The notes: generated by a model from the letters alone, not told the origin. A stretch of DNA of 64,000 nucleotides from Ornithinimicrobium sp. (GCF_035267225.1 NZ_DATFMA010000052.1:18797-82796); one strand, 5' to 3'; positions 3,928 to 52,832 are shown, numbered from the stretch's first letter. Numbers and translations: made by a program.

Positions 3928-6900
3928 TCAGCCACTGCCCCCCCAGATGTCCTCGACGAACCGGTCCTGCGCCCGCAGGTCGGCCAGCCATTGCTCGGCC
4001 TGCTCCTCCGAGGAACCGGTGTGGTCGCGGTAGATCTGGCGCAAGGCGGCCCGCACCCCGGGGGCCATCGTGTTGGCGTTGCCGCAGATGAACACCGCCG
4101 CGCCCTGCTCCAGCAGCTCCCAGATCTCGTCGGCGCGGTAGGCCATCTCGTGCTGCACCCACGCCCGGCCCTCCACCGGCTCGCTGGAGTAGACGGTGTA
4201 CACCGTGGCTACCCCGTCACGCTGGTAGGCCGCCATCTCCTCGGCGTAGATATCGTCACTGGGCTCCCGGCACCCGAAGAAGACCAGTGACCGGCCGACC
4301 TCGGCCCCGTCCGCCTGCTCGGCGGCACGCTCCTGCAGGAAGCCCCGGAACGGCGCGAGCCCGGTGCCCGCGCCGACCATGATCATGGGCACCGAGGGGT
4401 CTTTTGGTGGGTGGAACGCAATGGTGGGCGTCCGCGTGAAGGCGAACACCGTGGCCCCCGGAGCCATGCCAGCCAGGTAGTTCGTGGCCACGCCAGCGAA
4501 CACCCCGTCGCGTCCGCGGTTGGGCCCGCGCACGACGGCTGCGGTGATGGCCGGTGCACGCGCGTCCGAGCGGGGGGAGGAGGAGATGGAGTAGTACCGC
4601 GGGCGCAACGGCGGCAACAGGTCCAGGTACTCCTCGAATGGCAACGCGCAGGAGGGGTTCTCCTCGAGCAGGTCGAGGACCGAGCGGTACGGCTGGACAA
4701 TCTGGCTGCGGTACCGCACCTGCGCCTCCTCGTCCTCGCCGATCAGGGCCTCCAACGCCGCACGCTCGCGAGGGTCCTCTGTGTACCGGGCGAGAGTCTC
4801 GATGCTGTCCCGGTTGGCCATGTCCTGCAGCTCGACGCAGGTGCCGAGCACCGCGAGCAACGGCACCGGCTCGTCGGTCGGCAGGTGCGTCTGGGTGCCG
4901 GGCTTCTCGGTGATGGTGATGAACATCCCGGCGTCGAGAGTGAAGCGAGCCATGACCCGCCGGATGAGCGAGATGTCGTTGCGCGGGACCACCCCGAGGT
5001 GGTCGCCGGCAGCGTAGGAGAACCCGTCGGGCAGTGCCACCTCCAAGTGCCGCACGGATCGGGCCAGCGGACTGCCGTTGGTGCTCTTCTCGAGCTCGCG
5101 GTTGACCGTCACCCGCGACGGAGCCGCCTCGTACGACATGACGACCGGGTTGGACGTCTGCTGGTTGACCGTCGTGACGCTCAGGCGAGGGCCGGTGTTC
5201 ACGGCCTGCGACGCCGTGTCCGGCAGGTCGAGAGCCTGCGCCAGGTCCGCCCAGAGCTCCTTGTGCCACGAGCGGTACTCGCCGTCGAAGTCGCCCCCGA
5301 CGTTGCCCTCTCCTCGGGGGTGCACGCGGGTCCCTCCGTGGGCCTCCAGCGCCGCATCCAGGTCGGTCGGAACCTTCTGGTACGTCGCGGCCCAGTCGCG
5401 GTCCCCGCATCCGAAGACGGCGAACCGGCCCCCGGAGAAGACGTCGCCCGGTGTCGCCGGCTCGGCCATCCACTCGACGAAGTCGCGGGCGTTCTCCGGC
5501 GGCATGCCGTTGTAGGACGACGCCACGACCAGCGTGGCTCCCTCGGTGGGCAGCTGCCGCGCGACCTCGTCCAGCGAGGCCAGGGTGACGTCGTACCCCC
5601 GCTCGGTGCCTTCAGCAGCGAGCTTGGTGGCGATCCCCTCGGCGGTGCCGAGGTTCGAGCCGTAGAGGACCCGCAGCGGCGTGGCGTGGTACTCCACGCC
5701 GGGGAGCACCGAGACCGCCGTCCCTTCGTCCTCGGCAGACTCCTTCCCGGCTGCGTCTGGGCCGCTGTGGTCGAGCTCGAAGCCGGGCCGGGGGACGATC
5801 CGGGCGTAGAACTCGTCGGGCTTGATCGTCAGCGCCGTCTTCAGCTTGAGCTCGTAGTCGAGCGCGTCCTCGATGTCGAAGCGCTGCACGACCATCCCCA
5901 GGATGAGCGCCGCCTCCTGGAGGGCGAACTGACGGCCGATGCAGGCCCGCATCCCCGTGCCGAACGGCTTGTAGCCGTGGACCGACCTTTCGGCCTTGCG
6001 CTCGGGGGACATGTGGTCGGGGTTGAACTCCAGCGCGTCCTCGCCGTACAGCTCGGTGCTGCGGTGCAGCATTGGCGTCAGGACGGTGACCGGAGTCTCG
6101 GCAGGGACCTCGTACATGCCTCCGAGCAGGGTGTCCTCGGACGGAGCCCGGTTGAACACGGGGGCCGTCGGCCAGAGGCGCAGCGACTCCTCCAGCACCT
6201 GGGTGATGTAGGTCAGCGAGTGCACCTGCTCGTACGTCGGCCAGGCGTCGTTTCCGAACACCTCGTCGACCTCCGCCCGGGCTCGCTCGAAGTACTCCGG
6301 GTTCTTCATGAGGAAGTACAACGTGAACGAGAGCAGGCCGCTGGTCGTCTCGTGGCCGGCGATGAGGAAGGTGAGGCACTGGGCGACGATGTTGTAGTCC
6401 GGCAGGCGCTGGCCGGTGCGAGGGTCGACACCGGTGAGCATGACTCCGAGGAGGTCGGACTGGTCTGCCTGTGCACCAGCGGCTCGGCGCCGGTCGATGA
6501 GCCCCTGTACCAGGCTCTTCATGTACTCCTGGTCGTCGTCGAGGCGCCGCCGCTCGCGGATGCGCATCTTGTTGGCCACCGACGGCCTCTTCTGCATGTC
6601 CTGTGCGGCCAGCAGTGTGCGCACCATGGCCCCGACGAAGGGGTGGAGCGACTCGCGGTGCAGGCTGTTGAACCGGTAGCCGAACCCGCACAGCGCGATG
6701 GTGTCGAGGGTCACGGAGGTCATGTCGTCGGTGATGTGCACGACGTTGTCGTCGTCGTTGAGCCGGGCCCACTTCGTCATCAGCTGGTCGGCGATGTCGA
6801 GCATGGCCGGCATGTAGTTCCGCATCGACGCCTGGCTGAACGGCGCCATGAGGATGTTGTGCGCCTGCTGCCAGATCGGGTCGTCGTTGGCGGTGGTGAA

Positions 6901-7176
6901 CAGGCCGCTGCCGGCCGCGCTATGGCTCGCCTGCTCGACCCCGCCGGCCAGCTTCTTGTGGAAGGTGGTGTCGTCGCAGACCTGGTCGACCATGCCCGGG
7001 TCGCTCACGAAGACCCGGGACTGCCCGGCCAGGGAGATCTTGAAGACCGGCCCGTGCTCCTCGCTCAGCTTCATCAGGCCTTCGATCGGGCTCGACATGT
7101 CCAGGTCGAAGATGTTGCCGAGGAGCGGCACGCCTTTGGGTCCTGGGATCTCGTCGAATGGAATGCTGTCCGCCAT
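3928..7176 (-). CDS. cyp102: Bifunctional cytochrome P450 / NADPH-P450 reductase, CYP102 (BM3-like)
   Basis: 1082 aa; FLIAGHETT I-helix, EESLR ExxR, PFGTGMRACIG heme ligand, LYGSNLGTAEG FMN loop, RYYSISSS, MVGAGTGLAPFRGF, C-terminal DIW. Confidence 0.95.
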   Translation of the reverse strand: MADSIPFDEIPGPKGVPLLGNIFDLDMSSPIEGLMKLSEEHGPVFKISLAGQSRVFVSDPGMVDQVCDDTTFHKKLAGGVEQASHSAAGSGLFTTANDDPIWQQAHNILMAPFSQASMRNYMPAMLDIADQLMTKWARLNDDDNVVHITDDMTSVTLDTIALCGFGYRFNSLHRESLHPFVGAMVRTLLAAQDMQKRPSVANKMRIRERRRLDDDQEYMKSLVQGLIDRRRAAGAQADQSDLLGVMLTGVDPRTGQRLPDYNIVAQCLTFLIAGHETTSGLLSFTLYFLMKNPEYFERARAEVDEVFGNDAWPTYEQVHSLTYITQVLEESLRLWPTAPVFNRAPSEDTLLGGMYEVPAETPVTVLTPMLHRSTELYGEDALEFNPDHMSPERKAERSVHGYKPFGTGMRACIGRQFALQEAALILGMVVQRFDIEDALDYELKLKTALTIKPDEFYARIVPRPGFELDHSGPDAAGKESAEDEGTAVSVLPGVEYHATPLRVLYGSNLGTAEGIATKLAAEGTERGYDVTLASLDEVARQLPTEGATLVVASSYNGMPPENARDFVEWMAEPATPGDVFSGGRFAVFGCGDRDWAATYQKVPTDLDAALEAHGGTRVHPRGEGNVGGDFDGEYRSWHKELWADLAQALDLPDTASQAVNTGPRLSVTTVNQQTSNPVVMSYEAAPSRVTVNRELEKSTNGSPLARSVRHLEVALPDGFSYAAGDHLGVVPRNDISLIRRVMARFTLDAGMFITITEKPGTQTHLPTDEPVPLLAVLGTCVELQDMANRDSIETLARYTEDPRERAALEALIGEDEEAQVRYRSQIVQPYRSVLDLLEENPSCALPFEEYLDLLPPLRPRYYSISSSPRSDARAPAITAAVVRGPNRGRDGVFAGVATNYLAGMAPGATVFAFTRTPTIAFHPPKDPSVPMIMVGAGTGLAPFRGFLQERAAEQADGAEVGRSLVFFGCREPSDDIYAEEMAAYQRDGVATVYTVYSSEPVEGRAWVQHEMAYRADEIWELLEQGAAVFICGNANTMAPGVRAALRQIYRDHTGSSEEQAEQWLADLRAQDRFVEDIWGGSG

Positions 7177-7262
7177 GTGGGCCCTCCCGCTGCGTCCACT
7201 GCCCCGGCCACCGTGACCGAGGCCGAGACCGCCCGTTTCCCCGCCCTTGCCCGCGCGGAAGC

Positions 7263-7317
7263 CGAGTCGAGCGTGACTCGAGGTCCTGACACGAGTCCCT
7301 GCGATCTCGTGTCAAGG
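7263..7317. promoter_or_regulatory. Two inverted repeats upstream of cyp102; one overlaps a minus-strand TTGACA
   Basis: CGAGTC-N6-GACTCG (7263-7280) and TGACACGAG-N10-CTCGTGTCA (7287-7314); TTGACA on the minus strand at 7310-7315. Confidence 0.45.
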
Positions 7318-28393: not shown

Positions 28394-28411
28394 TTTCGAT
28401 TGTCGTAATAT
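28394..28411 (+). promoter_or_regulatory. Imperfect palindrome TTTCGA-TTG-TCGTAA overlapping a TAATAT -10 box of a leaderless mmpL transcript
   Basis: TAATAT at 28406-28411 lies 6 nt before GTG 28418; one mismatch between the arms. Confidence 0.55.
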
Positions 28412-28417
28412 TCTGCC

Positions 28418-30529
28418 GTGCTGAAGCTCGCCGACACGATCACCTCCCGCGTCTCGTCGCGCGTCGTCGCGGTGGTGGCGATCCTGTTGGCGGTCGGCGT
28501 CCTGGTCGGGGTCGGTCCCGGCGAGCGGTCACCGTCGCCGACCGACACCCTGGCGCAGGGCTACGGCAACACCGAGGGGGTGGAGCTCCTCGACCAGCTG
28601 CCGGCCGACGACACCACCACCGCCATCGCACTGTTCACGGTCCAGGACGAGGACATCACCGCCCGGCTCGGAACGCTGCAGCAGGTCGTCGACAGCCTGA
28701 CGACCACGCAGGGAGAGGAGTACCCCTCCGCCCAGGTCGTCCCGTCGGACGACGGCACCGCCGCGATCGCGGTGCTCACCGTGCCCTCGGCCACTGCCAC
28801 GGACACCTCCGCCGAGGTCACCGCCCTGCGCGACACCCTCGACGAGGAGGCCCCGGAGGCGGTGACCGCCGCGGTGACCGGACCCGCCGCGATCGAGGCC
28901 GACCTCGCTGCCGTCTTCGAGGGCGCGAACTTCACGCTCCTGCTCACCACGGCCTCCGTGGTGGCCGTTCTGCTGCTCGTCACCTACCGCAGCCCCACCC
29001 TGTGGCTGATTCCGCTGACGGTCATCGGCCTGGGCGACGTGTTCGCCTCCACCGCGGCCACCCGTGTGCTCGAGGTCGCGGGTGTGCCGTGGGACGAGTC
29101 GACCACGGGCATCCTGTCCGTCCTCGTCTTCGGGGCCGGCACCGACTATGCGCTGCTGCTCATCTCGCGGTACCGCGACGAGCTCAAGCGGCACGAGAGC
29201 CGGCACGAGGCCATGGCCTTGGCGCTTCGACGCACCTCCGAAGCGGTCTTCGCCAGCTCATCGACCGTGTTCCTCGGTCTGCTGACCCTGCTGTTGTCAG
29301 TCTTCCCCACCACGCGGGGTCTGGGCCTGGCGTGTGCGGTCGGCATCGTGATCGCGGCCGGGTTCGCGCTGGTCCTACTGCCGGCCGTGCTGGTCCAGTT
29401 CGGTCGGTGGGTGTTCTGGCCGCTCGTGCCCCGGGTGGGGCAGGCCGCCCTGGCCGACGGCACCTCCATCTGGAAGCGGGTCGGCAACGCCGTCGACAAG
29501 CGCCCGCCCCTGTTCATCGCCGCGACGGTGGTGGTGCTGGCCCTGGCGGCTGCCGGCGCCACGCGGATCGACCTCGGGCTGCCCACGAACGAACAGTTCC
29601 TCCAGGAGCCCGAGGCCATCAGCGCCGCCGAGCGTCTGGGGGAGTCGTTTCCGGCGGGGAGCGCAGACCCCACGACCATCGTCACCGACACGACCGACGA
29701 GCAACGGCTGGGCCAGATCCAGAGCGCGGTCGAGAGCGTCGACGTGGTGGAGTCGGTGCGTCCGGGCCAACAGGAGGCAGGGATCACGACCTTCCAGGCC
29801 GTGCTCTCCGTGGCACCGAGCACCAGCGGGGGTGAGCAGGCGGTGAAGGACCTGCGCAGCGCACTGGAGGACCAGCCGCGGACGTACGTGACCGGCGCCG
29901 ATGCCGAGGCGCTCGACACCGACGAGGGAACGGCGCGCGACCGGGTGCTCATCCTTCCGCTGATCCTCGGTCTCGTGTTGGTGGCCTTGTTCGGGCTGCT
30001 GCGCTCGTTCCTCGCCCCGGTCATCCTCGTGTCGACCGTGCTGTTGACCTACCTGTCCGCCCTGGGCATCTCCTGGCTGCTCTTCACCACCGTCTTCGGC
30101 TTCAGCGGGCTCGACTCCGGGGTCCCGCTGCTGGCGTTCCTGTTCCTGGTGGCGCTGGGCGTCGACTACAACATCTTCCTCATTACCCGTGCGCTCGAGG
30201 AGAGTGCCGTAGTCGGCGCCCGGGACGGGATCCTCCGCGGGCTGGCGGCCACCGGCGGGGTCATCACCAGTGCGGGCATCCTGCTGGCCGCCGTCTTCGC
30301 CGCACTGGGCGTCCTCCCGCTGGTGGTGCTGGCTCAGCTGGGGGTGGTCATCTTCGTCGGGGTGCTCATCGATACCCTGGTGGTCAGGACGGTGTTGGTG
30401 CCGGCCATCGTGCTGACCCTGGGCGAGACCTTCTACTGGCCTCGACGGCTGCGGCGGGGCAAGCACACCGAAGAAGCCGTCCGGGACGCCGACGATGAGC
30501 ACGACGAGGTCCGCCCGGCACAGAGATGA
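28418..30529 (+). CDS. mmpL: MMPL family (RND) transporter
   Basis: VTGPAAIEADL, GAGTDYALLLISRYRDE, ALGVDYNIFL, TGGVITSAG, DTLVVRTVLVPA. Confidence 0.92.
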   Translation: MLKLADTITSRVSSRVVAVVAILLAVGVLVGVGPGERSPSPTDTLAQGYGNTEGVELLDQLPADDTTTAIALFTVQDEDITARLGTLQQVVDSLTTTQGEEYPSAQVVPSDDGTAAIAVLTVPSATATDTSAEVTALRDTLDEEAPEAVTAAVTGPAAIEADLAAVFEGANFTLLLTTASVVAVLLLVTYRSPTLWLIPLTVIGLGDVFASTAATRVLEVAGVPWDESTTGILSVLVFGAGTDYALLLISRYRDELKRHESRHEAMALALRRTSEAVFASSSTVFLGLLTLLLSVFPTTRGLGLACAVGIVIAAGFALVLLPAVLVQFGRWVFWPLVPRVGQAALADGTSIWKRVGNAVDKRPPLFIAATVVVLALAAAGATRIDLGLPTNEQFLQEPEAISAAERLGESFPAGSADPTTIVTDTTDEQRLGQIQSAVESVDVVESVRPGQQEAGITTFQAVLSVAPSTSGGEQAVKDLRSALEDQPRTYVTGADAEALDTDEGTARDRVLILPLILGLVLVALFGLLRSFLAPVILVSTVLLTYLSALGISWLLFTTVFGFSGLDSGVPLLAFLFLVALGVDYNIFLITRALEESAVVGARDGILRGLAATGGVITSAGILLAAVFAALGVLPLVVLAQLGVVIFVGVLIDTLVVRTVLVPAIVLTLGETFYWPRRLRRGKHTEEAVRDADDEHDEVRPAQR

Positions 30530-35687: not shown

Positions 35688-36224
35688 GTGGCTGAGCAGC
35701 CAGTGCCGCCCCCGGAGTCGGTGTGGGACTACCCACGCCCGCCCGACGTCGTGCCCAGCGCCGAGCTGGTCGAGGTCCATCACGCCGGCCGGTGCATCGC
35801 GAGCACCTCGAGGAGCCTGCGAGTGCGGGAGACCTCGCATCCACCGACCTACTACCTCCCGGCACAGGCGTTCTCCCCGGGGGTGCTTCGTGCGGTTCCG
35901 GGTACGACGTTCTGTGAGTTCAAAGGCGTCGCGCACTACTTCGACCTCGTGGTCATCGAGTCCGGTGACGGTAGGACGGTCGGGCCGGCCGAGCGCGCTG
36001 CCGGCTCGGAGCGGGTCGCCGCCCGAGCCGCCTGGCACTACCCCCGGACGACGCCCGGCTTCGAGGCGCTACGTGGCCATGTCGCGGTGATGTCGGGAGC
36101 CGTAGACGCCTGCTACGTCGACGGCGAGCGCGTCCAGCCTCAGGACGGCTCGTTCTACGGCGGGTGGATCACCTCCCGCGTCGCCGGTCCGTTCAAGGGA
36201 GCGCCCGGGACGCGCGGGTGGTGA
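35688..36224 (+). CDS. DUF427 domain protein
   Basis: ESVWDYPRPP, ETSHPPTYY, TFCEFKG, FYGGWIT, GPFKG; GGAGG SD. Confidence 0.9.
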   Translation: MAEQPVPPPESVWDYPRPPDVVPSAELVEVHHAGRCIASTSRSLRVRETSHPPTYYLPAQAFSPGVLRAVPGTTFCEFKGVAHYFDLVVIESGDGRTVGPAERAAGSERVAARAAWHYPRTTPGFEALRGHVAVMSGAVDACYVDGERVQPQDGSFYGGWITSRVAGPFKGAPGTRGW

Positions 36225-36231
36225 GGCGCTG

Positions 36232-37737
36232 ATGTCGCCTGCCGGTCACGTGCGGCTGGTGTTCCCGCATCAGCTCTTCCTCGAGCACCTCGAGGCGCCC
36301 CGGGGCACGGTGTTCGTGCTGGTCGAGGACGACCTGTTCTTCCGGCAGTACTCCTTCCACGCCCAGAAGCTCATCCTGCACCGCGCCTCCATGCGGCGTT
36401 TCGCGGCTCGGCTCGGGGACGCGGGCTTCGGCGTCCACGTCGTCGAGAGCGACGCGGAGCGCTCAAGTGGCCAGCGGTGGCAGGAGCTGGTGGCCGAGCT
36501 GGATCCGCAGCGGGTCACGCTGTTCGACCCGGTCGACGACTGGCTCTCCCGGCGGACTCGCGCGATCCTCGATCGGCTGCGGCGACGCACGACCACGCGC
36601 TTGGAGTTCACCGTCGGCGAGGACGTGCTGGAGTCGCCGAACTTCCTCACCACCCGGGCCGAGCTGCGCCAGTGGTTCGCCGAGAACTCGGCGCGCATGC
36701 AGCACTTTTACTCCTGGCAGCGCCAGCGCCTCGGTATCCTTGTCGACGGGGACCAGCCGGTCGGCGGTCAGTGGTCGTTCGACACCGAGAACCGCAAGAA
36801 GCTGCCGAAGGAGCACCCTGTGCCGGCGGTGAGCCTCCCCGGACGCGCGCAGGAGGTCACCGACGCGATCGCCTGGGTGAAGCAGGAGTTCCCGGATGCT
36901 CCTGGCGAGCCCGACGCCTTCGCCTGGCCGACCTGCCACGAGGAGGCAGAAGAGGCATTCGGGCAGTTCCTCGACGAGCGGTTCGCCGAGTTCGGCCCGT
37001 ACGAGGACGCCATGAGCACCGAGCACCGGTTCGTCTTCCACGCCGTCCTCACCCCCGGGCTCAACATCGGGCTGGTCGACCCTCGCTCGGTGGTGGACCA
37101 GGCGCTGGCCGCCGCGGAGGAGCAGGACATCGCCTTGGCCTCGCTCGAAGGGTTCGTGCGTCAGGTCATCGGCTGGCGGGAGTACATGCGCGCCACCTAC
37201 GTCCTGTGGGGCGCGCAGATGCGCACGTCCAACGCGCTGGAGCACTCTCGCTCGCTGGCGCCAGGGTGGTGGCACACCGACGTGGGCCTGCCCCCGGTGG
37301 ACCACGTCCTGCGCTCGGTGGAGCAGACGGCGTACGCGCACCACATCGAGAGGCTCATGGTCTTCGGCAACCTCATGTGCCTGCTGCGGACCGATCCGAC
37401 CGCCGTCTACGAGTGGTTCATGGAGATGTTCATCGACGCCTACGACTGGGTGATGGTGCCGAACGTCTACGGCATGAGCCAGTTCGCTGCCGGCGAGGCG
37501 ATCACCACCAAGCCCTACGTCTCCGGGAGCAACTACCTGCGCAAGATGTCCGACTTCGGCTCCGGCGAGTGGACCGCCTCCTGGGACGGGCTCTACTGGA
37601 GCTTCGTGGCCGACCACCGGGAGGTTTTCGAGGCGAACTTCCGCTCACGCATGATGACCCGCATGTGGGACGGGATGGACGAGGACAAGCAGGCCGAGCA
37701 CCGTCGTCAGGCTGACCGCTGGCTCGGTTCCCGGTAG
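36232..37737 (+). CDS. Bacterial cryptochrome/(6-4) photolyase (PhrB-like), Fe-S-less subtype
   Basis: LVFPHQLF, HAQKL, GGQWSFDTENR, FGPYEDAM, EGFVRQVIGWRE, YAHHIERLM, KPYVSGSNYLRKMSD; no Fe-S cysteines. Confidence 0.88.
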   Translation: MSPAGHVRLVFPHQLFLEHLEAPRGTVFVLVEDDLFFRQYSFHAQKLILHRASMRRFAARLGDAGFGVHVVESDAERSSGQRWQELVAELDPQRVTLFDPVDDWLSRRTRAILDRLRRRTTTRLEFTVGEDVLESPNFLTTRAELRQWFAENSARMQHFYSWQRQRLGILVDGDQPVGGQWSFDTENRKKLPKEHPVPAVSLPGRAQEVTDAIAWVKQEFPDAPGEPDAFAWPTCHEEAEEAFGQFLDERFAEFGPYEDAMSTEHRFVFHAVLTPGLNIGLVDPRSVVDQALAAAEEQDIALASLEGFVRQVIGWREYMRATYVLWGAQMRTSNALEHSRSLAPGWWHTDVGLPPVDHVLRSVEQTAYAHHIERLMVFGNLMCLLRTDPTAVYEWFMEMFIDAYDWVMVPNVYGMSQFAAGEAITTKPYVSGSNYLRKMSDFGSGEWTASWDGLYWSFVADHREVFEANFRSRMMTRMWDGMDEDKQAEHRRQADRWLGSR

Positions 37738-37794
37738 CGTCCCGGCCCCCCGAACGATGTCGGACCGCAGACCCCGTACCCTGGGACGTTGGTG

Positions 37795-37862
37795 GGCAGG
37801 CAGGGTCGACCATGCTGGTCTAGGCATGCCGGTGTCCCTGCCGGTTGTCGACCCTGCCTGCC
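37795..37862. repeat. Perfect 16-bp inverted repeat enclosing two small hairpins
   Basis: GGCAGGCAGGGTCGAC (37795-37810) and GTCGACCCTGCCTGCC (37847-37862), 36-nt spacer. Confidence 0.85.
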
Positions 37863-38026
37863 GCGTGCTCCAGCGACCGGTACGTGTCGCGAGCGGGTTC
37901 ATCGTCGCACAGCAAGGGCCGAACACGAAACCCGGATCGCCTGTGTCGCAGAAAAAGAGGCTCATCCGTAACAATGGCCGCACATCCGCCCGCGGGCCCG
38001 TCGGCGGGGACGCCTAGTCTGGCCGC

Positions 38027-39394
38027 ATGCCTACCGCGATGCTGTGGCTGCGGCGCGACCTGCGTCTGCACGACCTGCCGGCTCTGACGGCGGCCTGGAA
38101 GGCCGCTGACGGGGGAAGAGTGCTCCCGGTGTTCGTGCTCGACCCCGATCTGCTCGAACAGTCGGACGTGCGCACCCACTGCCTGCTGTCGGCGCTGGAG
38201 GAGGCACAGCAGGCCTACGAGGGGGCGATCGTGCTGCGCCGCGGCAAGCCGGCCGAGGTGCTCCCGACGTTGGTGCAGGAGTCGGGTGCGCAGTCGGTGC
38301 ACATCTCCGCCGAGTCGACGCCCTACGGCCGCCGTCGCGACGAGCAGGTCAGCGACGCCCTGGGTCAGGTGCCCCTGGTGGCGACCGGATCGGCCTACGC
38401 GGTGGGACCGGGCACGATCTTCAACGGCTCAGGGGAGCCCTACAAGGTGTTCACGCCGTTCTCGAACGCCTGGCGCGACCACGGCTGGCCCGACCCGGCC
38501 CAGCCACCGTCCGACGTGCGCTGGCACCGGCAGGTCTCCTCCGAGCCGATGCCGGGAAAGCCGGAGCTCGTCGACGGGGTGGAGCTGCCGGCGGTGGGGG
38601 AGCAGGCGGCCCTGGAGCGCTGGCACGACTTTCTCGACGGAGGTGTCGGTGAGTACGACGACGAGCGGGACCGGCCCGACCACGACGGAACGAGCCAGCT
38701 GTCGGTGCAGCTGAAGTACGGCACGATCCATCCGAGGACCCTGCTGGCGGACCTCAAGGGACGCCGCGGCAAGGGGGTGTACGGGTTCGCCACCGAGATC
38801 GCCTGGCGCGAGTTCTACGCCGACGTGCTCTGGCACAACCCCAGCTCCGCGTGGCAGGACCTCAAGCCCCAGCTGTCGGCGATGGTCTATGACGACCCGG
38901 ACACCGACGACCAGGTGGCGCAGATGGTGCAGGCCTGGCGTGAGGGGAGGACCGGTTACCCGTTCGTGGACGCGGGGATGCGCCAGCTGCTGGCCGAGGG
39001 GTGGATGCACAACCGGGTGCGGATGGTCACCGCGAGCTTCCTGTGCAAGCACCTGCACGTGTGGTGGCCGCACGGAGCACGGCACTTCCTGCGGCACCTT
39101 CGCGACGGTGACATCGCCTCGAACAACCACGGTTGGCAGTGGGTGGCGGGGACAGGCACGGACGCCGCCCCGTACTTTCGCATCTTCAACCCCACCACGC
39201 AGGGGCAGCGGTTCGACCCGAGCGGTGACTACGTGCGCCGTTATGTGCCCGAGCTACGTCATCTGAGCGGCAAGTCGGTGCACGAGCCGTGGAAAGCCGA
39301 CGACGGCTACGAGCACGGCTATCCGGAGCGGGTCGTGGACCACAAAGAGGCGCGTTCCGAGGCGTTGGCGCGTTACGAGCAGTCCCGCTCCTGA
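38027..39394 (+). CDS. phr: Deoxyribodipyrimidine photolyase (CPD photolyase)
   Basis: WLRRDLRLHD, TSQLSVQLKYG, EIAWREFY, GRTGYPFVDAGMRQL..EGWMHNRVRM, DIASNNHGWQW, FRIFNP. Confidence 0.95.
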   Translation: MPTAMLWLRRDLRLHDLPALTAAWKAADGGRVLPVFVLDPDLLEQSDVRTHCLLSALEEAQQAYEGAIVLRRGKPAEVLPTLVQESGAQSVHISAESTPYGRRRDEQVSDALGQVPLVATGSAYAVGPGTIFNGSGEPYKVFTPFSNAWRDHGWPDPAQPPSDVRWHRQVSSEPMPGKPELVDGVELPAVGEQAALERWHDFLDGGVGEYDDERDRPDHDGTSQLSVQLKYGTIHPRTLLADLKGRRGKGVYGFATEIAWREFYADVLWHNPSSAWQDLKPQLSAMVYDDPDTDDQVAQMVQAWREGRTGYPFVDAGMRQLLAEGWMHNRVRMVTASFLCKHLHVWWPHGARHFLRHLRDGDIASNNHGWQWVAGTGTDAAPYFRIFNPTTQGQRFDPSGDYVRRYVPELRHLSGKSVHEPWKADDGYEHGYPERVVDHKEARSEALARYEQSRS

Positions 39395-47527: not shown

Positions 47528-47642
47528 CCCGACGCGAAGCGGGCCGGATGGCCGTGGTGGGATGACGGGAACGACGACGCGGGCGTGCCGCGTTGTGAAC
47601 CAGCATCCGCATCCCCTCTACCGCGAAGGATCCGCTCGTCGC

Positions 47643-50312
47643 ATGGCCTCTTCCCGCCTCGGTGCCGCTGCGCGTACGGCCCGCGCACGCCTCGCTGTCG
47701 CCGTGGCGGTCGCGGTCGCGGTGGCAGGTATCGCCGTAGCGCCTCTGGTGCTCCCGTGGCCCGCGCTGGCTGCCGCCGAGCGCACGGAGATCGAAAGCAT
47801 GCGGGTGCCGGTCGGCGACGAGCCGGACGGCTCCTCGGTGCAGCTCGACGTCGACCTCTACCGCCCCGACGAGACGGGGTCGGCGCCCGCCGTCGTCCTG
47901 GGTCACGGGTTCGGGGGCAGCAAGGACGACGTGGCCGACCGGGCACAGCGCCTCGCCGGTGAGGGCTTCGTGGTGCTGGCCTACTCGGCTCGAGGTTTCG
48001 GCGACTCCGGCGGGCGGGTCCACCTCAACGACCCTGACTACGAGATCGCCGACGCGCAGGTGTTGATCGACGAGCTGGCCGACGATGACCAGGTGCGCCA
48101 GGACGCCGCCGGCGATCCCCGGGTCGCGGTGGTCGGCGGCAGCTACGGCGGCGCCATGGCGCTGATGACGGCGGGTGCTGACTCCCGGGTCGACTCTGTC
48201 GTCGCCTCGATCACCTGGAACGACCTTGGCCGCGCCTTCTACCCGCAGGCCGCTGCCGGGGTCGGCGACCCTGGGCCGTTCAAGAAGCTGTGGGCCTCGA
48301 CGTTCTTCACCGCTGCCCTCGGCGAAGGCGTCGACCCGGGTGCAGCCGGGCAGGTGTGCGGCCGCTTCGACCCCGAGCTGTGCGCGCAGTTCCGTGCCGC
48401 CATGGAGTCTGGGGACAGTGGGGACGATGGAGGTGACGCCAACGCCGTCCTGCGCGAGCGGTTGCGTGAGCACAGCCCCGCGCCAACGCTGGCTGACGTC
48501 ACGGCGCCGACCTATCTCATGCAGGGCATGTCGGACAGCCTCTTCGGCCTCGACCAGGCCGACGCCACCGCGCGCGCTCTGCTGGAAGCGGGGGCTCCGG
48601 TGGCCGTCGACTGGTTCAACGGCGGCCACGACGGTCAGACCTCGGTCGCCACCGCACAGCAGGACGAGGGTGGCCCGCCCGGCAACGACGGCTCGACGCT
48701 CGCCAGCGAAGAGGGCAGCAACATCGAGGAGGAGCAGTTCCAAGACACGCTGACCTGGCTGCGGGGGACCTTGGCCGGGCGGGACAGTCTGGGTCAGGGC
48801 AGCCTTCCCCTACCCGCATTCACCTACCGTGCGCCACCCCCGCGCGGTGATGAAGCCGCGCCGGCGTACACCCTGGACGCCTATCCCGGTCTGGGCGGCG
48901 TGCGCGGGGAAGCGACATCGGTGCCGCTACGCGAGCCTGCCGTCCCTGCTCTGGTCAGCCCGCCCGGGGCGGTTCCGGAGTCGCTGACCATCGTGCCTGG
49001 CGTGGGTGGAGCACTGGCCGCCGTGTCGACCTATCAGCTCGCCGCCCTGCCCGGGCAGCACGTGGCCGTGGACACCGAGCCGGTGGAGGAAGCCACCCTG
49101 GTGGTCGGCGCGCCGGAGATCAGCCTGCAGGTCACCTCCTCGGCATCACAGAGCAGCCTGTTCGTCTCGCTGTGGGAGGTGCAGCCAGGTGGCCCGGTGC
49201 TGCCGCGTCGCCTGGTCGCCCCGGTCGAGGTGCCGCTCAGCCCCGGCGAGCCGCAGCGGGTCGATCTCACCCTTCCGGGCGGTACCTGGCAGATGTCGGC
49301 CGGATCGACCTGGCGTGTGCTGGTCAGCGCCACGGACGGCTCGTTCCGGGTCGACCCGGCGACGCGGGTCGACCAGATCGCCCTCGCTGAGCCGGCCTTG
49401 ACCCTGCCCGTCGCCGAAGGGACCGAAGTCAGCACCGCCAGCGGCGTGGATACCGAGGTCGTGGGTGTCGCCTCGGCGCTCGGCGTGCTCCTGCTCGTCG
49501 TCGCGGTGGCCGGTCTGCGGGCTCGTCGGCGGCCCCACCCCGAGGCGCCGCAGTGGCGCGACGTCCCCCTCGTGGTCAGCGGGCTCACGAAGGCGTACCC
49601 GGACGGTCACCGCGCGGTGAACGACGTCTCCTGGCGGGCCGAACGCGGGCAGGTGGTCGGGCTCCTGGGTCCCAACGGTGCCGGCAAGACGACGACGCTG
49701 CGGATGGTGATGGGCCTGATCACCCAGGACGCAGGCACGGTGCATGTCCTGGGGCAGCGGGTCAGCGCAGGGGCTCCGGTGCTGCAGCGAGTGGGCGCGC
49801 TCGTCGAGGGCCCGGGCTTCCTGCCGCACCTGTCGGGGCGCGACAACCTCCTGGCGTACTGGGCGGCCACCGGTCGCCCCGCGGGCGAGGCTCGTCTGGC
49901 GGAGGCGCTGGAGATCGCGGCGCTCGGTGATGCGGTCGAGCGCCCGGTGAAGTCCTACAGCCACGGCATGCGCCAGCGTCTGGGCATCGCCCAGGCGATG
50001 CTCGGCCTGCCCGAGGTGCTGATCCTGGACGAGCCGACGAACGGTCTCGACCCGCCGCAGATCGCGGCGATGAGGCCCATCCTGCAGGACTATGCCGCCG
50101 AGGGGCGCACCGTCGTCGTGTCCAGCCACCTACTCGCCGAGGTGGAGATGACGTGCTCCCACGTGGTCGTCATGCACGCCGGAGAGGTGCTGGCCGCGGG
50201 GTCGGTGAAGGAGGTCGGGGTGGCCGAGGGTCGCAACCTCGAAGAGGTGTTCCTGAGCACGATCGCCGGCGCCGCGCCTGGTTCGGCGCTCAACGCGGTG
50301 CGGCCCCGATGA
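47643..50312 (+). CDS. Secreted CocE/NonD-S15-type serine hydrolase fused through a TM helix to an ABC ATPase
   Basis: Signal-like N-terminus; GHGFGGS, YSARGFG, GGSYGG, QGMSD, GGHD; TM SALGVLLLVVAVAGL; GPNGAGKT, YSHGMRQRLG, ILDEPT, VSSH. Confidence 0.9.
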   Translation: MASSRLGAAARTARARLAVAVAVAVAVAGIAVAPLVLPWPALAAAERTEIESMRVPVGDEPDGSSVQLDVDLYRPDETGSAPAVVLGHGFGGSKDDVADRAQRLAGEGFVVLAYSARGFGDSGGRVHLNDPDYEIADAQVLIDELADDDQVRQDAAGDPRVAVVGGSYGGAMALMTAGADSRVDSVVASITWNDLGRAFYPQAAAGVGDPGPFKKLWASTFFTAALGEGVDPGAAGQVCGRFDPELCAQFRAAMESGDSGDDGGDANAVLRERLREHSPAPTLADVTAPTYLMQGMSDSLFGLDQADATARALLEAGAPVAVDWFNGGHDGQTSVATAQQDEGGPPGNDGSTLASEEGSNIEEEQFQDTLTWLRGTLAGRDSLGQGSLPLPAFTYRAPPPRGDEAAPAYTLDAYPGLGGVRGEATSVPLREPAVPALVSPPGAVPESLTIVPGVGGALAAVSTYQLAALPGQHVAVDTEPVEEATLVVGAPEISLQVTSSASQSSLFVSLWEVQPGGPVLPRRLVAPVEVPLSPGEPQRVDLTLPGGTWQMSAGSTWRVLVSATDGSFRVDPATRVDQIALAEPALTLPVAEGTEVSTASGVDTEVVGVASALGVLLLVVAVAGLRARRRPHPEAPQWRDVPLVVSGLTKAYPDGHRAVNDVSWRAERGQVVGLLGPNGAGKTTTLRMVMGLITQDAGTVHVLGQRVSAGAPVLQRVGALVEGPGFLPHLSGRDNLLAYWAATGRPAGEARLAEALEIAALGDAVERPVKSYSHGMRQRLGIAQAMLGLPEVLILDEPTNGLDPPQIAAMRPILQDYAAEGRTVVVSSHLLAEVEMTCSHVVVMHAGEVLAAGSVKEVGVAEGRNLEEVFLSTIAGAAPGSALNAVRPR

Positions 50313-51121
50313 GCGGCACCGCGCTGTCGGTGCGCGTGGAGGCGCGGCGACAGCTGACCAGGCTGCGCACCAGGTGGACGTTCGCGGTCCTGTTGGTGCT
50401 GCCGCTCGTCGTCGTCGGCGCCTACGCCCTCGGCGACGGCGACGGGGAGGGCCAGCGCTTCTCCGACCTCGCGACGCTCGGGTCGGCGAACTTCGCCATC
50501 TTCATGCTCTTCGTCACGGCCCCGCTGCTGTTGCTGATCGTGGCCGCGCTGTTCGTCGGTGACCCCGTGCCCTCGGAGGCCTCGTGGGCGTCGTTGCGCT
50601 ACCTGCTCATCGCTCCGGTCTCCCGTGCGCGGCTGCTCACGAGCACGTTGCTGGTGGGGCTGGGCGCGACGGTGGTCGCCATGCTCACGCTGCTGCTCTG
50701 GGTCCTGCTCGTGGGTGGCCTGTTCTACGGGTGGGACTCGCTCACCCTTCCGGTGGGGGGCACCCTCGACTGGCCGACGATGCTGGGCCGCCTGGCGGTG
50801 GCCTCCGCCTATATCTTCGTCGGCCTCCTGCCGTTCGCGGCCATCGCCTTCTGGATGGGAGTGCGCACCGACGCGCCCCTCGGCGCGGTCGGAGTCGCGG
50901 TGCTCGCCTCCATTGTCTCTTCGATCCTGGACGCACTGGACGCGTTGGGAGACTGGCGCCGCGGGTTGCCCAACCACTACGCGTTCGAATGGGTGGGCCT
51001 GTTCTCGCCCGAGGCGGACTACGGGGCGCTGTTGCCGGGGGTGCTGTGGGCCCTGCTGTGGGCCACGGTGTTCGTTGCCCTCGCGTACCGACACTTCTCC
51101 CGCAAGGACATCGTGAGCTGA
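50309..51121 (+). CDS. ABC-2 type transporter permease
   Basis: Six TM segments, EASWASLRYLLIAPVSRARLL EAA-like loop; ATGA overlap with the fusion gene. Confidence 0.88.
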   Translation: MSGTALSVRVEARRQLTRLRTRWTFAVLLVLPLVVVGAYALGDGDGEGQRFSDLATLGSANFAIFMLFVTAPLLLLIVAALFVGDPVPSEASWASLRYLLIAPVSRARLLTSTLLVGLGATVVAMLTLLLWVLLVGGLFYGWDSLTLPVGGTLDWPTMLGRLAVASAYIFVGLLPFAAIAFWMGVRTDAPLGAVGVAVLASIVSSILDALDALGDWRRGLPNHYAFEWVGLFSPEADYGALLPGVLWALLWATVFVALAYRHFSRKDIVS

Positions 51122-52643: not shown

Positions 52644-52832
52644 ATGAGATCTACGACGCTGTACCGCCCTCGCTCCAACCGGATCATCGCCGGCGTCTGC
52701 GCGGGCCTGGCCTACAGGTTCGGCCTGAGCCCCACCCTGGTGCGCATCCTCACGGTGCTGTCGTGTCTGCTGCCCGGCCCCCAGTTCGTCGCCTACATCG
52801 TGATGTGGATCATCATGCCCAAGGGTGACTGA
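52644..52832 (+). CDS. pspC: PspC domain protein
   Basis: LYRPRSNRIIAGVCAGLAYRFG...VR...AYIVMWIIMP. Confidence 0.9.
   Translation: MRSTTLYRPRSNRIIAGVCAGLAYRFGLSPTLVRILTVLSCLLPGPQFVAYIVMWIIMPKGD

What the first reader, a model, noticed from the sequence alone, without database searches (positions are those of the whole stretch)
47568..51121. Extracytoplasmic serine hydrolase covalently fused across the membrane to an ABC ATPase, plus a permease
Seen: one ORF runs signal peptide, S15/CocE-type hydrolase with apparent Ser-Asp-His triad (GGSYGG, QGMSD, GGHD), a C-terminal beta domain, one TM helix, and a complete NBD (Walker A, signature, Walker B, H-loop). It overlaps an ABC-2 permease gene. 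An ECF-sigma-like GGAAC-N18-CGTT sits upstream (47568-47594, spacing slightly long). Known: ABC NBDs are normally separate or fused to TM domains, not to outward-facing enzymes; FtsEX/MacB systems transmit ATP-driven motion across membranes. Inference: an uncharacterized machine in which ATP hydrolysis controls or is coupled to an external peptidase/esterase, for example antimicrobial detoxification, envelope remodelling or processing of exported cargo. I know of no functional study, though similar fusions probably occur in other Actinobacteria.
Basis: partly seen in the sequence, partly recalled or inferred. Interest (0 to 1): 0.75.

Follow-up and report, generated by a model that had tools for sequence, protein, structure and literature searches.

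The report
Surface hydrolase fused to ABC ATPase
One gene encodes an exported serine hydrolase joined through a single membrane helix to an ABC-transporter ATPase, followed by its permease gene; the pair is conserved across Actinomycetota and I found no functional study of it.

Summary
CDS 47643-50312 (889 aa) encodes a Sec-type signal peptide, a CocE/NonD (S15-like) alpha/beta hydrolase, a PepX_C beta domain, one TM helix with an RRRR stop-transfer, and a complete ABC ATPase. An ATGA overlap couples it to a 270-aa, 6-TM ABC-2 permease (50309-51121).

The fusion is not an artefact. In the 80 best-matching species genomes, 74 have it in one reading frame; five others stop at contig ends and one is frameshifted. 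These genomes cover many actinobacterial orders. The permease is the only conserved neighbour.

The hydrolase triad (S167/D298/H329), a Cys pair and the ATPase catalytic residues are invariant in 75 sequences. Linker lengths on both sides of the TM helix are tightly conserved.

The permease fold is type V; NosY of NosDFY is the closest solved structure. It is not FtsX/MacB type. The hydrolase is closest to the PaL lipase and CocE.

Best reading: a 2:2 ABC-2 machine holds two hydrolases at the outer membrane face and couples the ATP cycle to cleavage of a membrane-associated ester or peptide. The substrate and the mode of coupling are inferred, not shown.

The ECF-like promoter motif is real, but recurs only in three close relatives.

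The parts
47568..47594 (+). ECF-sigma-like promoter motif GGAAC-N18-CGTT, about 50 nt upstream of the start codon
   Evidence: the only match in the window, against 1.09 expected by chance. GGAAC-N17-CGTT at the equivalent position in L004, L005 and L014 only (3 loci against 0.9 expected).
47625..47630 (+). Ribosome-binding site GAAGGA, 12 nt before ATG 47643
   Evidence: Read directly from the sequence.
47643..50312 (+). Fusion gene, 889 aa: signal peptide, CocE/NonD-type hydrolase, PepX_C beta domain, TM helix, ABC ATPase
47643..47777 (+). Sec-type signal peptide: positively charged n-region, A/V-rich h-region, ALA-AA cleavage-like site at about aa 43-45
   Evidence: hydropathy; 43 of 46 homologues have an N-terminal hydrophobic segment, and on reading their N-termini most show an AxA-like site; helix 6-31.
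47787..48632 (+). Alpha/beta-hydrolase catalytic domain (aa 49-330) with a helical cap insertion. Features: HG oxyanion motif (H88 G89), Ser167 (48141-48143), Cys239/Cys247 (48357-48359 and 48381-48383), Asp298 (48534-48536), His329 (48627-48629)
   Evidence: Pfam; these residues are invariant in 75 sequences; similarity to PaL lipase and CocE.
48819..49430 (+). C-terminal beta jelly-roll domain (PepX_C type), aa 393-596
   Evidence: PF08530, 40.9 bits; all-beta region in the model; aligns to the beta domains of PaL and CocE.
49452..49529 (+). Single transmembrane helix (aa 604-629) ending in the conserved RxRRR stop-transfer
   Evidence: the helix sequence is poorly conserved, while the Arg cluster is 57-93% conserved (four of five positions at 80% or more); linker lengths are conserved on both sides.
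49569..50282 (+). ABC nucleotide-binding domain (aa 643-880) with Walker A, signature, Walker B and H-loop
   Evidence: K682 is invariant, and D796, E797 and H829 are invariant wherever the position is present.
50309..51121 (+). ABC-2 (type V) permease, 270 aa, 6 TM helices, translationally coupled through an ATGA overlap

Best explanation
The locus is a self-contained two-gene ABC-2 (type V) machine. Shown: the first protein is exported at its N-terminus by a Sec-type signal peptide. This leaves a catalytically intact CocE/NonD-type serine hydrolase and its beta domain on the outer face of the membrane. A single TM helix with short linkers of fixed length ties that enzyme to a cytoplasmic ABC ATPase. 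A 6-TM NosY-like permease is made by translational coupling. Inferred: two fusion subunits and two permeases assemble as an ordinary ABC dimer, giving 14 TM helices. That would hold two hydrolase domains directly over the outer mouth or lateral gate of the permease. The ATP cycle would extract or expose a membrane-associated amphipathic substrate, such as a lipid or other ester, or a peptide lodged in the membrane, and hand it to the tethered hydrolase for cleavage ('extract and cleave'). In this organism and a few close relatives, transcription probably depends on an ECF-type (envelope-stress-type) sigma factor. The substrate is unknown. The fold relatives point to an esterase or lipase at least as strongly as to a peptidase.
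For: Architecture and motifs. Topology: the signal peptide is present in 43 of 46 homologues. The stop-transfer is Arg-rich and the ATP-dependent NBD must be cytoplasmic. The Cys239/Cys247 pair is invariant in the hydrolase; I read it as a likely disulfide, which would fit an exported domain. The nearest non-fused relatives carry CWB2 cell-wall-binding repeats. The fusion is genuine: 74 of 80 species genomes have one reading frame, all 120 listed database hits carry an ABC_tran domain and nearly all also Peptidase_S15, and a complete Tsukamurella record has the same pair. The module is self-contained: the permease is the only conserved neighbour. Both activities are under selection: the hydrolase catalytic residues and Walker A K682 are invariant in 75 sequences, and the other ATPase catalytic residues are invariant wherever present. 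Geometry is constrained: the P589-to-R626 spacing is 34-40 aa in 73 of 75 sequences and the R626-to-P642 spacing is 11-17 aa in 64 of 75, although the sequence there is poorly conserved. Transporter class: the permease fold is closest to NosY, then to PmtD, ABCG25, KpsM, TarG and Wzm. The NBD is closest to ABCA proteins, TM0544, NosF and Rv1218c. Its best NCBIfam hits are lantibiotic-protection and DrrA-type ATPases. Hydrolase class: PaL lipase, CocE, amino-acid ester hydrolase and PepX.
Against: Nothing here shows transport, hydrolysis or their coupling. The TM helix sequence is poorly conserved. The external loops of the permease are only moderately conserved, 0.50-0.58 against 0.87 for the cytoplasmic coupling loop, so I saw no clear docking surface. 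A stand-alone relative with only a C-terminal TM anchor and no ABC genes exists (P0213), so the enzyme type can work without an ATPase. The closest solved transporter, NosFY, is thought not to translocate a substrate across the membrane (my own knowledge of the NosDFY structural work). No complex model could be computed here. No conserved neighbour or regulator points to a substrate.
Confidence: 0.45

Rival explanations
1. ATP-gated ecto-enzyme with no transport. The ABC-2 module translocates nothing. ATP binding and hydrolysis move the TM helix and permease loops, and that motion switches the external hydrolase on or off or repositions it. This would resemble the way NosFY drives periplasmic NosD, or FtsEX activates cell-wall hydrolases.
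For: NosY is the best structural match of the permease, and NosF is among the best sequence matches of the NBD. Both linkers flanking the TM helix are short and tightly length-conserved. Both catalytic sets are invariant. Mechanotransmission is an accepted mode for ABC systems (PMC10094684).
Against: The match to NosY is weak (E 1e-3, TM-score 0.54-0.61 normalised to the query, about 20% identity), and genuine exporters follow closely. The TM helix has no conserved face, and external loops are only moderately conserved. The permease has no large ectodomain of the FtsX/MacB kind.
Confidence: 0.3
2. Specific version of the main model: an immunity or detoxification device against membrane-active antimicrobial peptides or other amphipathic toxins. 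The ABC-2 part would expel the compound from the membrane, as LanFEG, BcrAB and PmtCD do, and the tethered hydrolase would destroy it.
For: The best NCBIfam hit of the NBD is the lantibiotic-protection ATPase family TIGR03740 (172.9 bits). The permease matches ABC2_membrane_4, and its second structural match is the phenol-soluble-modulin exporter PmtD. An ECF-type promoter lies upstream here and in three relatives. A PspC envelope-stress gene lies 1.5 kb downstream.
Against: The TIGR03740 score is far below its cut-off of 309.75. No sensor kinase, regulator or biosynthetic genes are linked. The module is chromosomal and spread across many actinobacterial orders; it is almost absent from plasmids, with 8 of 72,556 records. 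That pattern looks more like a housekeeping envelope function than an accessory resistance gene. The ECF motif is absent in most loci.
Confidence: 0.15
3. Passive tether. The fusion only anchors a surface hydrolase and fixes its stoichiometry and expression with an unrelated ABC-2 exporter. The two activities would be mechanistically independent.
For: The TM helix sequence is generic. A stand-alone relative anchored by a C-terminal TM helix exists. Other relatives are anchored by CWB2 repeats instead.
Against: The fusion is kept in 74 of 80 species genomes across orders, and I saw no clean split into separate genes. Linker lengths are tightly conserved rather than long and variable as in simple tethers. 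The permease is always coupled and is the only conserved neighbour.
Confidence: 0.1
4. Assembly artefact or pseudogene: two genes wrongly joined.
For: Two related loci, L040 and L085, do show frame breaks.
Against: An identical gene call exists on an independent JGI contig. Complete genomes have the same single ORF. The reading frame is unbroken and all catalytic motifs are intact.
Confidence: 0.01

Closest known systems
NosDFY (NosF ATPase, NosY ABC-2 permease, periplasmic NosD) of nitrous-oxide reductase maturation
   Same: The permease fold is the best PDB match (7o0y_D) and hits the Pfam family PF12679, which I recall as the one containing NosY. NosF is among the top NBD matches (E 2e-36). 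In both systems an ABC-2 engine carries an extracytoplasmic protein module; NosD passes copper from NosL to NosZ within the NosDFY complex (bioRxiv 10.64898/2025.12.16.694761).
   Different: The external module here is a serine hydrolase, not a beta-helix copper carrier. It is covalently joined to the NBD through its own TM helix rather than docked on the permease. No nos genes are nearby. Similarity is low, about 20% identity.
CocE/NonD (peptidase S15) hydrolases: PaL lipase (8yzn), cocaine esterase CocE, alpha-amino-acid ester hydrolase, PepX
   Same: The two-part build is the same: an alpha/beta hydrolase with a helical cap plus a C-terminal jelly-roll domain. It has the GxSYxG nucleophile motif and a Ser-Asp-His triad.
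   Different: As far as I know, the solved relatives are soluble enzymes. This one is exported and membrane-tethered, and it has an HG oxyanion-type motif more typical of S33/DLH esterases. Identity to solved structures is only 16-20%. Substrate unknown.
TCDB family 3.A.1.145: ABC-2 permease fused to an M1 aminopeptidase, e.g. Myxococcus xanthus Q1D520
   Same: An ABC-2 transporter covalently fused to a hydrolase, also functionally uncharacterized. [quoted passage not shown]
   Different: There the peptidase is a zinc M1 enzyme at the C-terminus of a 13-TMS permease. Here a serine S15-type hydrolase is fused to the ATPase subunit through one TM helix, and the permease is a separate plain 6-TM protein.
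Type VII mechanotransmission ABC systems (MacB, LolCDE, FtsEX)
   Same: The concept is shared: cytoplasmic ATP hydrolysis does work on the other side of the membrane (PMC10094684). From my own knowledge, FtsEX controls external cell-wall hydrolases.
   Different: The permease here has 6 TM helices of the ABC-2 fold, no FtsX domain and no large periplasmic domain. The enzyme is part of the ATPase polypeptide, not a recruited partner.
ABC-2 peptide exporters and immunity systems (LanFEG, BcrAB, PmtCD) and the NSR protease with NsrFP pairing
   Same: The NBD and permease families are the nearest named ones. A transporter plus an external protease is a known logic for lantibiotic resistance (my own knowledge).
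   Different: Family cut-offs are not reached. There are no linked regulators. Here the enzyme and the ATPase are one polypeptide.

Membership tests
CocE/NonD (peptidase S15-type) alpha/beta hydrolase | Alpha/beta-hydrolase domain matching PF02129 above the gathering score | tested here: met
   60.6 bits against a cut-off of 23. All ten relatives scanned also match, and the listed database hits carry the domain almost without exception.
CocE/NonD (peptidase S15-type) alpha/beta hydrolase | GxSYxG nucleophile motif and a Ser-Asp-His triad | tested here: met
   GGSYGG with S167, D298 and H329, all invariant in 75 sequences. The Ser aligns with the PaL nucleophile motif.
CocE/NonD (peptidase S15-type) alpha/beta hydrolase | C-terminal PepX_C jelly-roll domain | tested here: met
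   PF08530, 40.9 bits against 22.5. Beta domain at aa 393-596 in the model. Full-length Foldseek matches to PaL and CocE.
CocE/NonD (peptidase S15-type) alpha/beta hydrolase | Measured esterase or peptidase activity | not testable with these tools
   Needs enzyme assays.
ABC ATPase (nucleotide-binding domain) | Walker A, signature LSGGQ-like motif, Walker B with catalytic Glu, H-loop | tested here: met
   PF00005, 102.4 bits. Motif positions. Conservation: K682 is in all 75 sequences, and S773, D796, E797 and H829 are invariant wherever the position is present.
Type V (ABC-2) transporter | Separate 6-TM permease of the ABC-2 fold with an N-terminal amphipathic helix and a cytoplasmic coupling helix | tested here: met
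   PF12679 and PF12730 are matched by 12 of 12 members. The model (pLDDT 89) shows 6 TM helices. Top Foldseek hits are NosY, PmtD, ABCG25, KpsM, TarG and Wzm. The coupling loop is 87% conserved.
Type V (ABC-2) transporter | Assembly of two NBDs with two permeases | not testable with these tools
   No multimer prediction was available. Inferred from translational coupling and co-occurrence in 72 loci.
Type VII mechanotransmission ABC (MacB/FtsEX/LolCDE) | 4-TM FtsX-type permease with a large periplasmic domain between TM1 and TM2 | tested here: not met
   No FtsX domain hit. The permease has 6 TM helices and external loops of about 30 residues or fewer. No type VII permease appears among the 50 listed fold matches.
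NosDFY copper-delivery system | NosD beta-helix partner and nos gene-cluster context | tested here: not met
   The neighbours are an aminotransferase, AzlCD, MFS transporters and a Na/H exchanger. No conserved third gene in 80 loci.
Lantibiotic-protection ABC ATPase (TIGR03740) and DrrA (TIGR01188) | Score above the NCBIfam curated cut-off | tested here: not met
   172.9 against 309.75, and 163.8 against 312.45.
TCDB 3.A.1.145 (peptidase-fused ABC-2) | M1 zinc aminopeptidase fused to the C-terminus of a multi-TMS ABC-2 permease | tested here: not met
   The permease here is a plain 270-aa protein. The hydrolase is an S15-type serine enzyme fused to the NBD. Family description from PMC3924187.
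ECF-sigma-dependent promoter | GGAAC and CGTT elements with 16-18 nt spacing, suitably upstream of the start and conserved in orthologous loci | tested here: inconclusive
   Present here with N18 and in L004, L005 and L014 with N17, all about 45-60 nt before the ATG. Absent from the other 77 loci: 3 found against 0.9-2.6 expected. No transcription data.

The most novel reading that the evidence does not exclude
A new mode of ABC function. The ATPase subunit itself reaches across the membrane through one helix and directly drives or gates a covalently attached extracellular serine hydrolase. ATP hydrolysis in the cytoplasm would power or license a hydrolytic (or acyl-transfer) reaction on the cell surface, with the NosY-like permease acting as stator or substrate gate rather than as a transport channel. 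Its spread across many actinobacterial orders would then point to a conserved envelope-maintenance reaction not yet recognised.
Probability: 0.25. Interest if true: 0.85.

Novelty: new variant of a known kind. Interest (0 to 1): 0.6.

Why it matters
ABC ATPases are almost always free subunits or are fused to their own membrane domain. Here the ATPase polypeptide carries an exported, catalytically intact enzyme. The arrangement is kept in many actinobacterial orders: Micrococcales, Mycobacteriales (including Rhodococcus and Tsukamurella), Streptosporangiales, Pseudonocardiales, Propionibacteriales, Acidimicrobiales, Nanopelagicales and Thermoleophilia. I found no functional study of it.

If the two activities are coupled, this would be a compact two-gene model for how energy from cytoplasmic ATP is used for chemistry outside the cell. 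Until now that question has been studied mainly in multi-protein systems such as FtsEX, Lol, Lpt and NosDFY. It may also reveal an unrecognised step in actinobacterial envelope maintenance or defence. The module is small and present in cultivable genera such as Rhodococcus, Janibacter and Terrabacter, so the question is directly testable.

Tried and rejected
1. Literature. Ten full-text searches found no paper on this fusion. My recollection that TCDB 3.A.1.145 might be this family was wrong: that family is an M1 peptidase fused to the permease.

2. A permease profile searched against PDB sequences gave no hit at E of 10 or below. Only fold comparison worked.

3. Search for a third conserved gene. 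All-against-all clustering of ORFs in 82 loci found only the two genes and their antisense shadow ORFs. Lineage-level neighbours do not extend across the family: uvrB, a helicase and Usp in Rhodococcus, and a divergent MFS gene in 14 loci.

4. A family-wide ECF promoter is rejected, both for the strict pattern and for relaxed ones.

5. 'Split' homologues. Short representatives turned out to be contig-truncated or 'partial' or frameshifted (L085; L040). One real stand-alone anchored hydrolase has no ABC genes beside it.

6. The first diverse hydrolase alignment (A2) was too divergent for the genome scan. A closer one (A3) worked.

7. A conserved face on the TM helix, or a strongly conserved external docking surface on the permease, was not found.

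8. Plasmid carriage is negligible.

9. A 2:2 complex prediction could not be run.


Full report
**1. What is in the sequence**

The ORF list gives a 916-aa frame at 47562-50312 on the + strand. The likely start is ATG 47643. A GAAGGA ribosome-binding site lies 12 nt upstream. An independent JGI gene call on another contig gives the identical 889-aa product, P0001. From that start the N-terminus looks like those of the homologues. All numbering below uses the 889-aa protein.

Pfam matches, all above the curated cut-offs:
- Peptidase_S15, 60.6 bits (cut-off 23)
- PepX_C, 40.9 bits (cut-off 22.5)
- ABC_tran, 102.4 bits (cut-off 25)

- GGSYGG, containing Ser167
- QGMSD, containing Asp298
- GGHD, containing His329
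- Walker A GPNGAGKT
- signature SHGMRQ
- Walker B LILDEP
- the H-loop His

Hydropathy shows exactly two hydrophobic segments. One is N-terminal. The other is at aa 604-629 and is followed by RARRRP.

The second gene starts at ATG 50309, which overlaps the TGA stop at 50310-50312. It encodes a 270-aa protein with six TM helices that matches ABC2_membrane_2 and ABC2_membrane_4.

**2. The fusion is genuine and widespread**

- All 120 listed database relatives (48-100% identity) carry an ABC_tran domain, and nearly all also Peptidase_S15; the one that lacks it is annotated 'partial'. Their sources name them only 'alpha/beta fold hydrolase', 'CocE/NonD family hydrolase' or 'ABC transporter ATP-binding protein'.
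- A scan of one genome per species returned at least 568 relatives. The best 80 come from Dermatophilaceae/Intrasporangiaceae, Nocardioides, Rhodococcus, Williamsia, Actinomadura, Nonomuraea, Microbispora, Pseudonocardia, Saccharopolyspora, Acidimicrobiales and Nanopelagicales. A Thermoleophilia member appears.
- In 74 of those 80 loci the hydrolase and the NBD lie in one uninterrupted frame. Five of the others stop at a contig end and one (L040) is frameshifted.
- Shorter 'representatives' proved to be partial or frameshifted copies.
- The gene is almost never on plasmids: 8 of 72,556 records. A complete Tsukamurella replicon shows the same pair with a 4-nt overlap.

**3. The module is two genes**

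I clustered all ORFs from 82 loci. Only the fusion gene, the permease directly downstream (74 loci by clustering; full-length matches in 72) and their antisense shadow ORFs are shared. Flanking genes differ even among close relatives.

**4. Topology**

The ATPase needs cytoplasmic ATP. It follows a TM helix that ends in an Arg cluster conserved at 57-93%, with four of the five positions at 80% or more. Everything N-terminal to that helix must therefore be outside.

- Of 46 homologues, 43 have an N-terminal hydrophobic segment. Most have basic residues before it. On reading their N-termini, most show an AxA-like site, as Sec-type signal peptides do.
- Two cysteines in the cap region (C239, C247; CGRFxPxxC) are invariant in 75 sequences. 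I read them as a likely disulfide, which would fit an exported domain.
- The nearest relatives that lack an ATPase carry three CWB2 cell-wall-binding repeats or just a C-terminal TM anchor. Both are surface-display arrangements.

I regard the external location of the hydrolase as well supported, though not experimentally shown.

**5. Both enzymes look active and geometrically constrained**

- Ser167, Asp298, His329, the HG motif and Walker A Lys682 are invariant in all 75 aligned sequences. Asp796, Glu797 and His829 are invariant wherever the position is present, in 72-73 of 75.
- The TM helix itself is poorly conserved in sequence.
- Spacing is tight. From the last conserved beta-domain proline to the stop-transfer arginine there are 34-40 residues in 73 of 75 sequences. 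From that arginine to the first NBD strand there are 11-17 residues in 64 of 75.
- In the AlphaFold model (pLDDT 83) the jelly-roll domain ends about 7 residues before the helix.

Short linkers of fixed length argue against a loose tether. They suggest the enzyme is held at a defined position on the membrane surface.

**6. What the parts resemble**

Hydrolase:
- The best sequence and fold match is the PaL lipase (8yzn/8yzo; E 2e-15 and 6.5e-29).
- Next come cocaine esterase, alpha-amino-acid ester hydrolases and X-prolyl dipeptidyl peptidases.
- An esterase or lipase activity is therefore at least as likely as a peptidase activity.

NBD:
- The best PDB sequence matches are ABCA proteins, TM0544, NosF and Rv1218c.
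- The best NCBIfam hits are the lantibiotic-protection and DrrA families, both far below their cut-offs.

Permease:
- The model (pLDDT 89) is closest to NosY of NosDFY (TM-score 0.54-0.61 normalised to the query).
- Next come PmtD, ABCG25, KpsM, TarG and Wzm.
- This is the type V (ABC-2) fold.
- Conservation is highest in the cytoplasmic coupling loop (0.87) and only moderate in the external loops (0.50-0.58).

**7. Mechanism**

Shown:
- a coupled two-gene ABC-2 system
- an external, triad-intact hydrolase on the ATPase polypeptide
- constrained linkers on both sides of the TM helix

Inferred:
- Two fusion subunits and two permeases assemble as a 2:2 complex with two hydrolases seated at the outer face.
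- My preferred model (0.45) is 'extract and cleave'. The type V module uses ATP to lift an amphipathic, membrane-associated molecule out of the bilayer, as its exporter relatives do. It then presents that molecule to the tethered hydrolase.
- The main rival (0.3) is a NosDFY- or FtsEX-like engine that transports nothing and uses ATP to gate the enzyme.
- A specific version of the main model is antimicrobial-peptide immunity (0.15). It has some support from family resemblances and the stress-type promoter. The chromosomal spread across many orders and the lack of linked regulators argue against it.
- A purely passive tether (0.1) fits the generic TM helix and the stand-alone relative. It does not fit the persistent fusion or the fixed linker lengths.

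**8. Promoter**

GGAAC-N18-CGTT at 47568-47594 is the only such site in the window, and about one is expected by chance. It lies about 50 nt before the start codon. GGAAC-N17-CGTT lies at the same relative place in L004, L005 and L014. It is absent from the other 77 loci. An ECF-type promoter is plausible for this small lineage but is not a family trait.

**9. Novelty**

- I found no functional or structural paper on this architecture.
- The only catalogued 'peptidase-fused ABC-2' family I could verify is TCDB 3.A.1.145. It is a different build: an M1 aminopeptidase at the end of a 13-TMS permease. It is also uncharacterized (PMC3924187).
- The genes are present in public databases under generic names, so the sequence family is not new.
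- What is undescribed is the design: an enzyme outside, covalently linked to the ATPase inside.

I rate it a new variant of a known kind, an ABC-2 system with an extracytoplasmic accessory module. Interest is 0.6.

Noticed in passing
window 52644-52832 (+): A 62-aa PspC-domain gene (PF04024, 89 bits), which I take to be envelope-stress related. It lies just after the Na+/H+ exchanger gene, 1.5 kb downstream of the permease.
   Followed up: partly
window 3931-7311 (-): A 1127-aa self-sufficient cytochrome P450 fused to flavodoxin, FAD-binding and NAD-binding reductase domains, which to my knowledge is a CYP102/P450-BM3-like architecture.
   Followed up: no
L032:2226-5039(-), L076:1802-4375(-) and 12 other loci: In 14 related loci (Actinomadura, Spirillospora, Thermomonospora, Pseudonocardia, Acidimicrobiales, Nanopelagicales) an MFS_1 transporter gene lies within a few kb of the fusion gene. 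In most of them it is upstream and divergent. In the Actinomadura and Acidimicrobiales examples scanned it ends in CarboxypepD_reg repeats. MFS genes are common, so the link may be chance.
   Followed up: partly
window 48657-48701 (aa 339-353 of the fusion protein): An acidic, low-complexity insertion (QQDEGGPPGNDGSTLASEEGSNIEEE) between the catalytic His and the linker helix. It is absent from the distant homologues in alignment A2 and has pLDDT below 50 in the model.
   Followed up: no
alignment A1, C-terminal end of the NBD (homologues such as P0062 and P0097): Many homologues carry an extra segment of roughly 60-80 residues between the NBD core and the conserved C-terminal LEEVFL motif. 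It may be a regulatory domain. This window's protein lacks it.
   Followed up: no
window 49806-49808 (aa 722 of the fusion protein): The position I take to be the Q-loop holds Glu, not Gln, in all 75 family members (VGALVEGPGF). The alignment of this position to the canonical Q-loop was not verified structurally.
   Followed up: no
L086:5001-6998 and L087:5001-6998 (P0213): A 665-aa stand-alone relative: signal peptide, the same hydrolase and beta domains, and a C-terminal TM anchor, with no ABC genes nearby. This may be the ancestral or a degenerate form of the fusion.
   Followed up: partly
L085:5001-8533 and L040:5815-8704: Two related loci where the NBD part is out of frame with the hydrolase part while the permease is intact. 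These are either sequencing indels in metagenome assemblies or real pseudogenes.
   Followed up: partly
window 28409-30526 (+); 36106-39391 (+): An MMPL-family transporter gene, and a pair of genes: a DPRP (photolyase-related) protein followed by a DNA photolyase.
   Followed up: no
L030, L033, L035, L038, L039, L047, L060, L064, L066, L072, L074: In Rhodococcus and related Nocardiaceae the module sits in a fixed neighbourhood: a UvrD-like helicase and a universal stress protein gene upstream, and uvrB downstream.
   Followed up: partly
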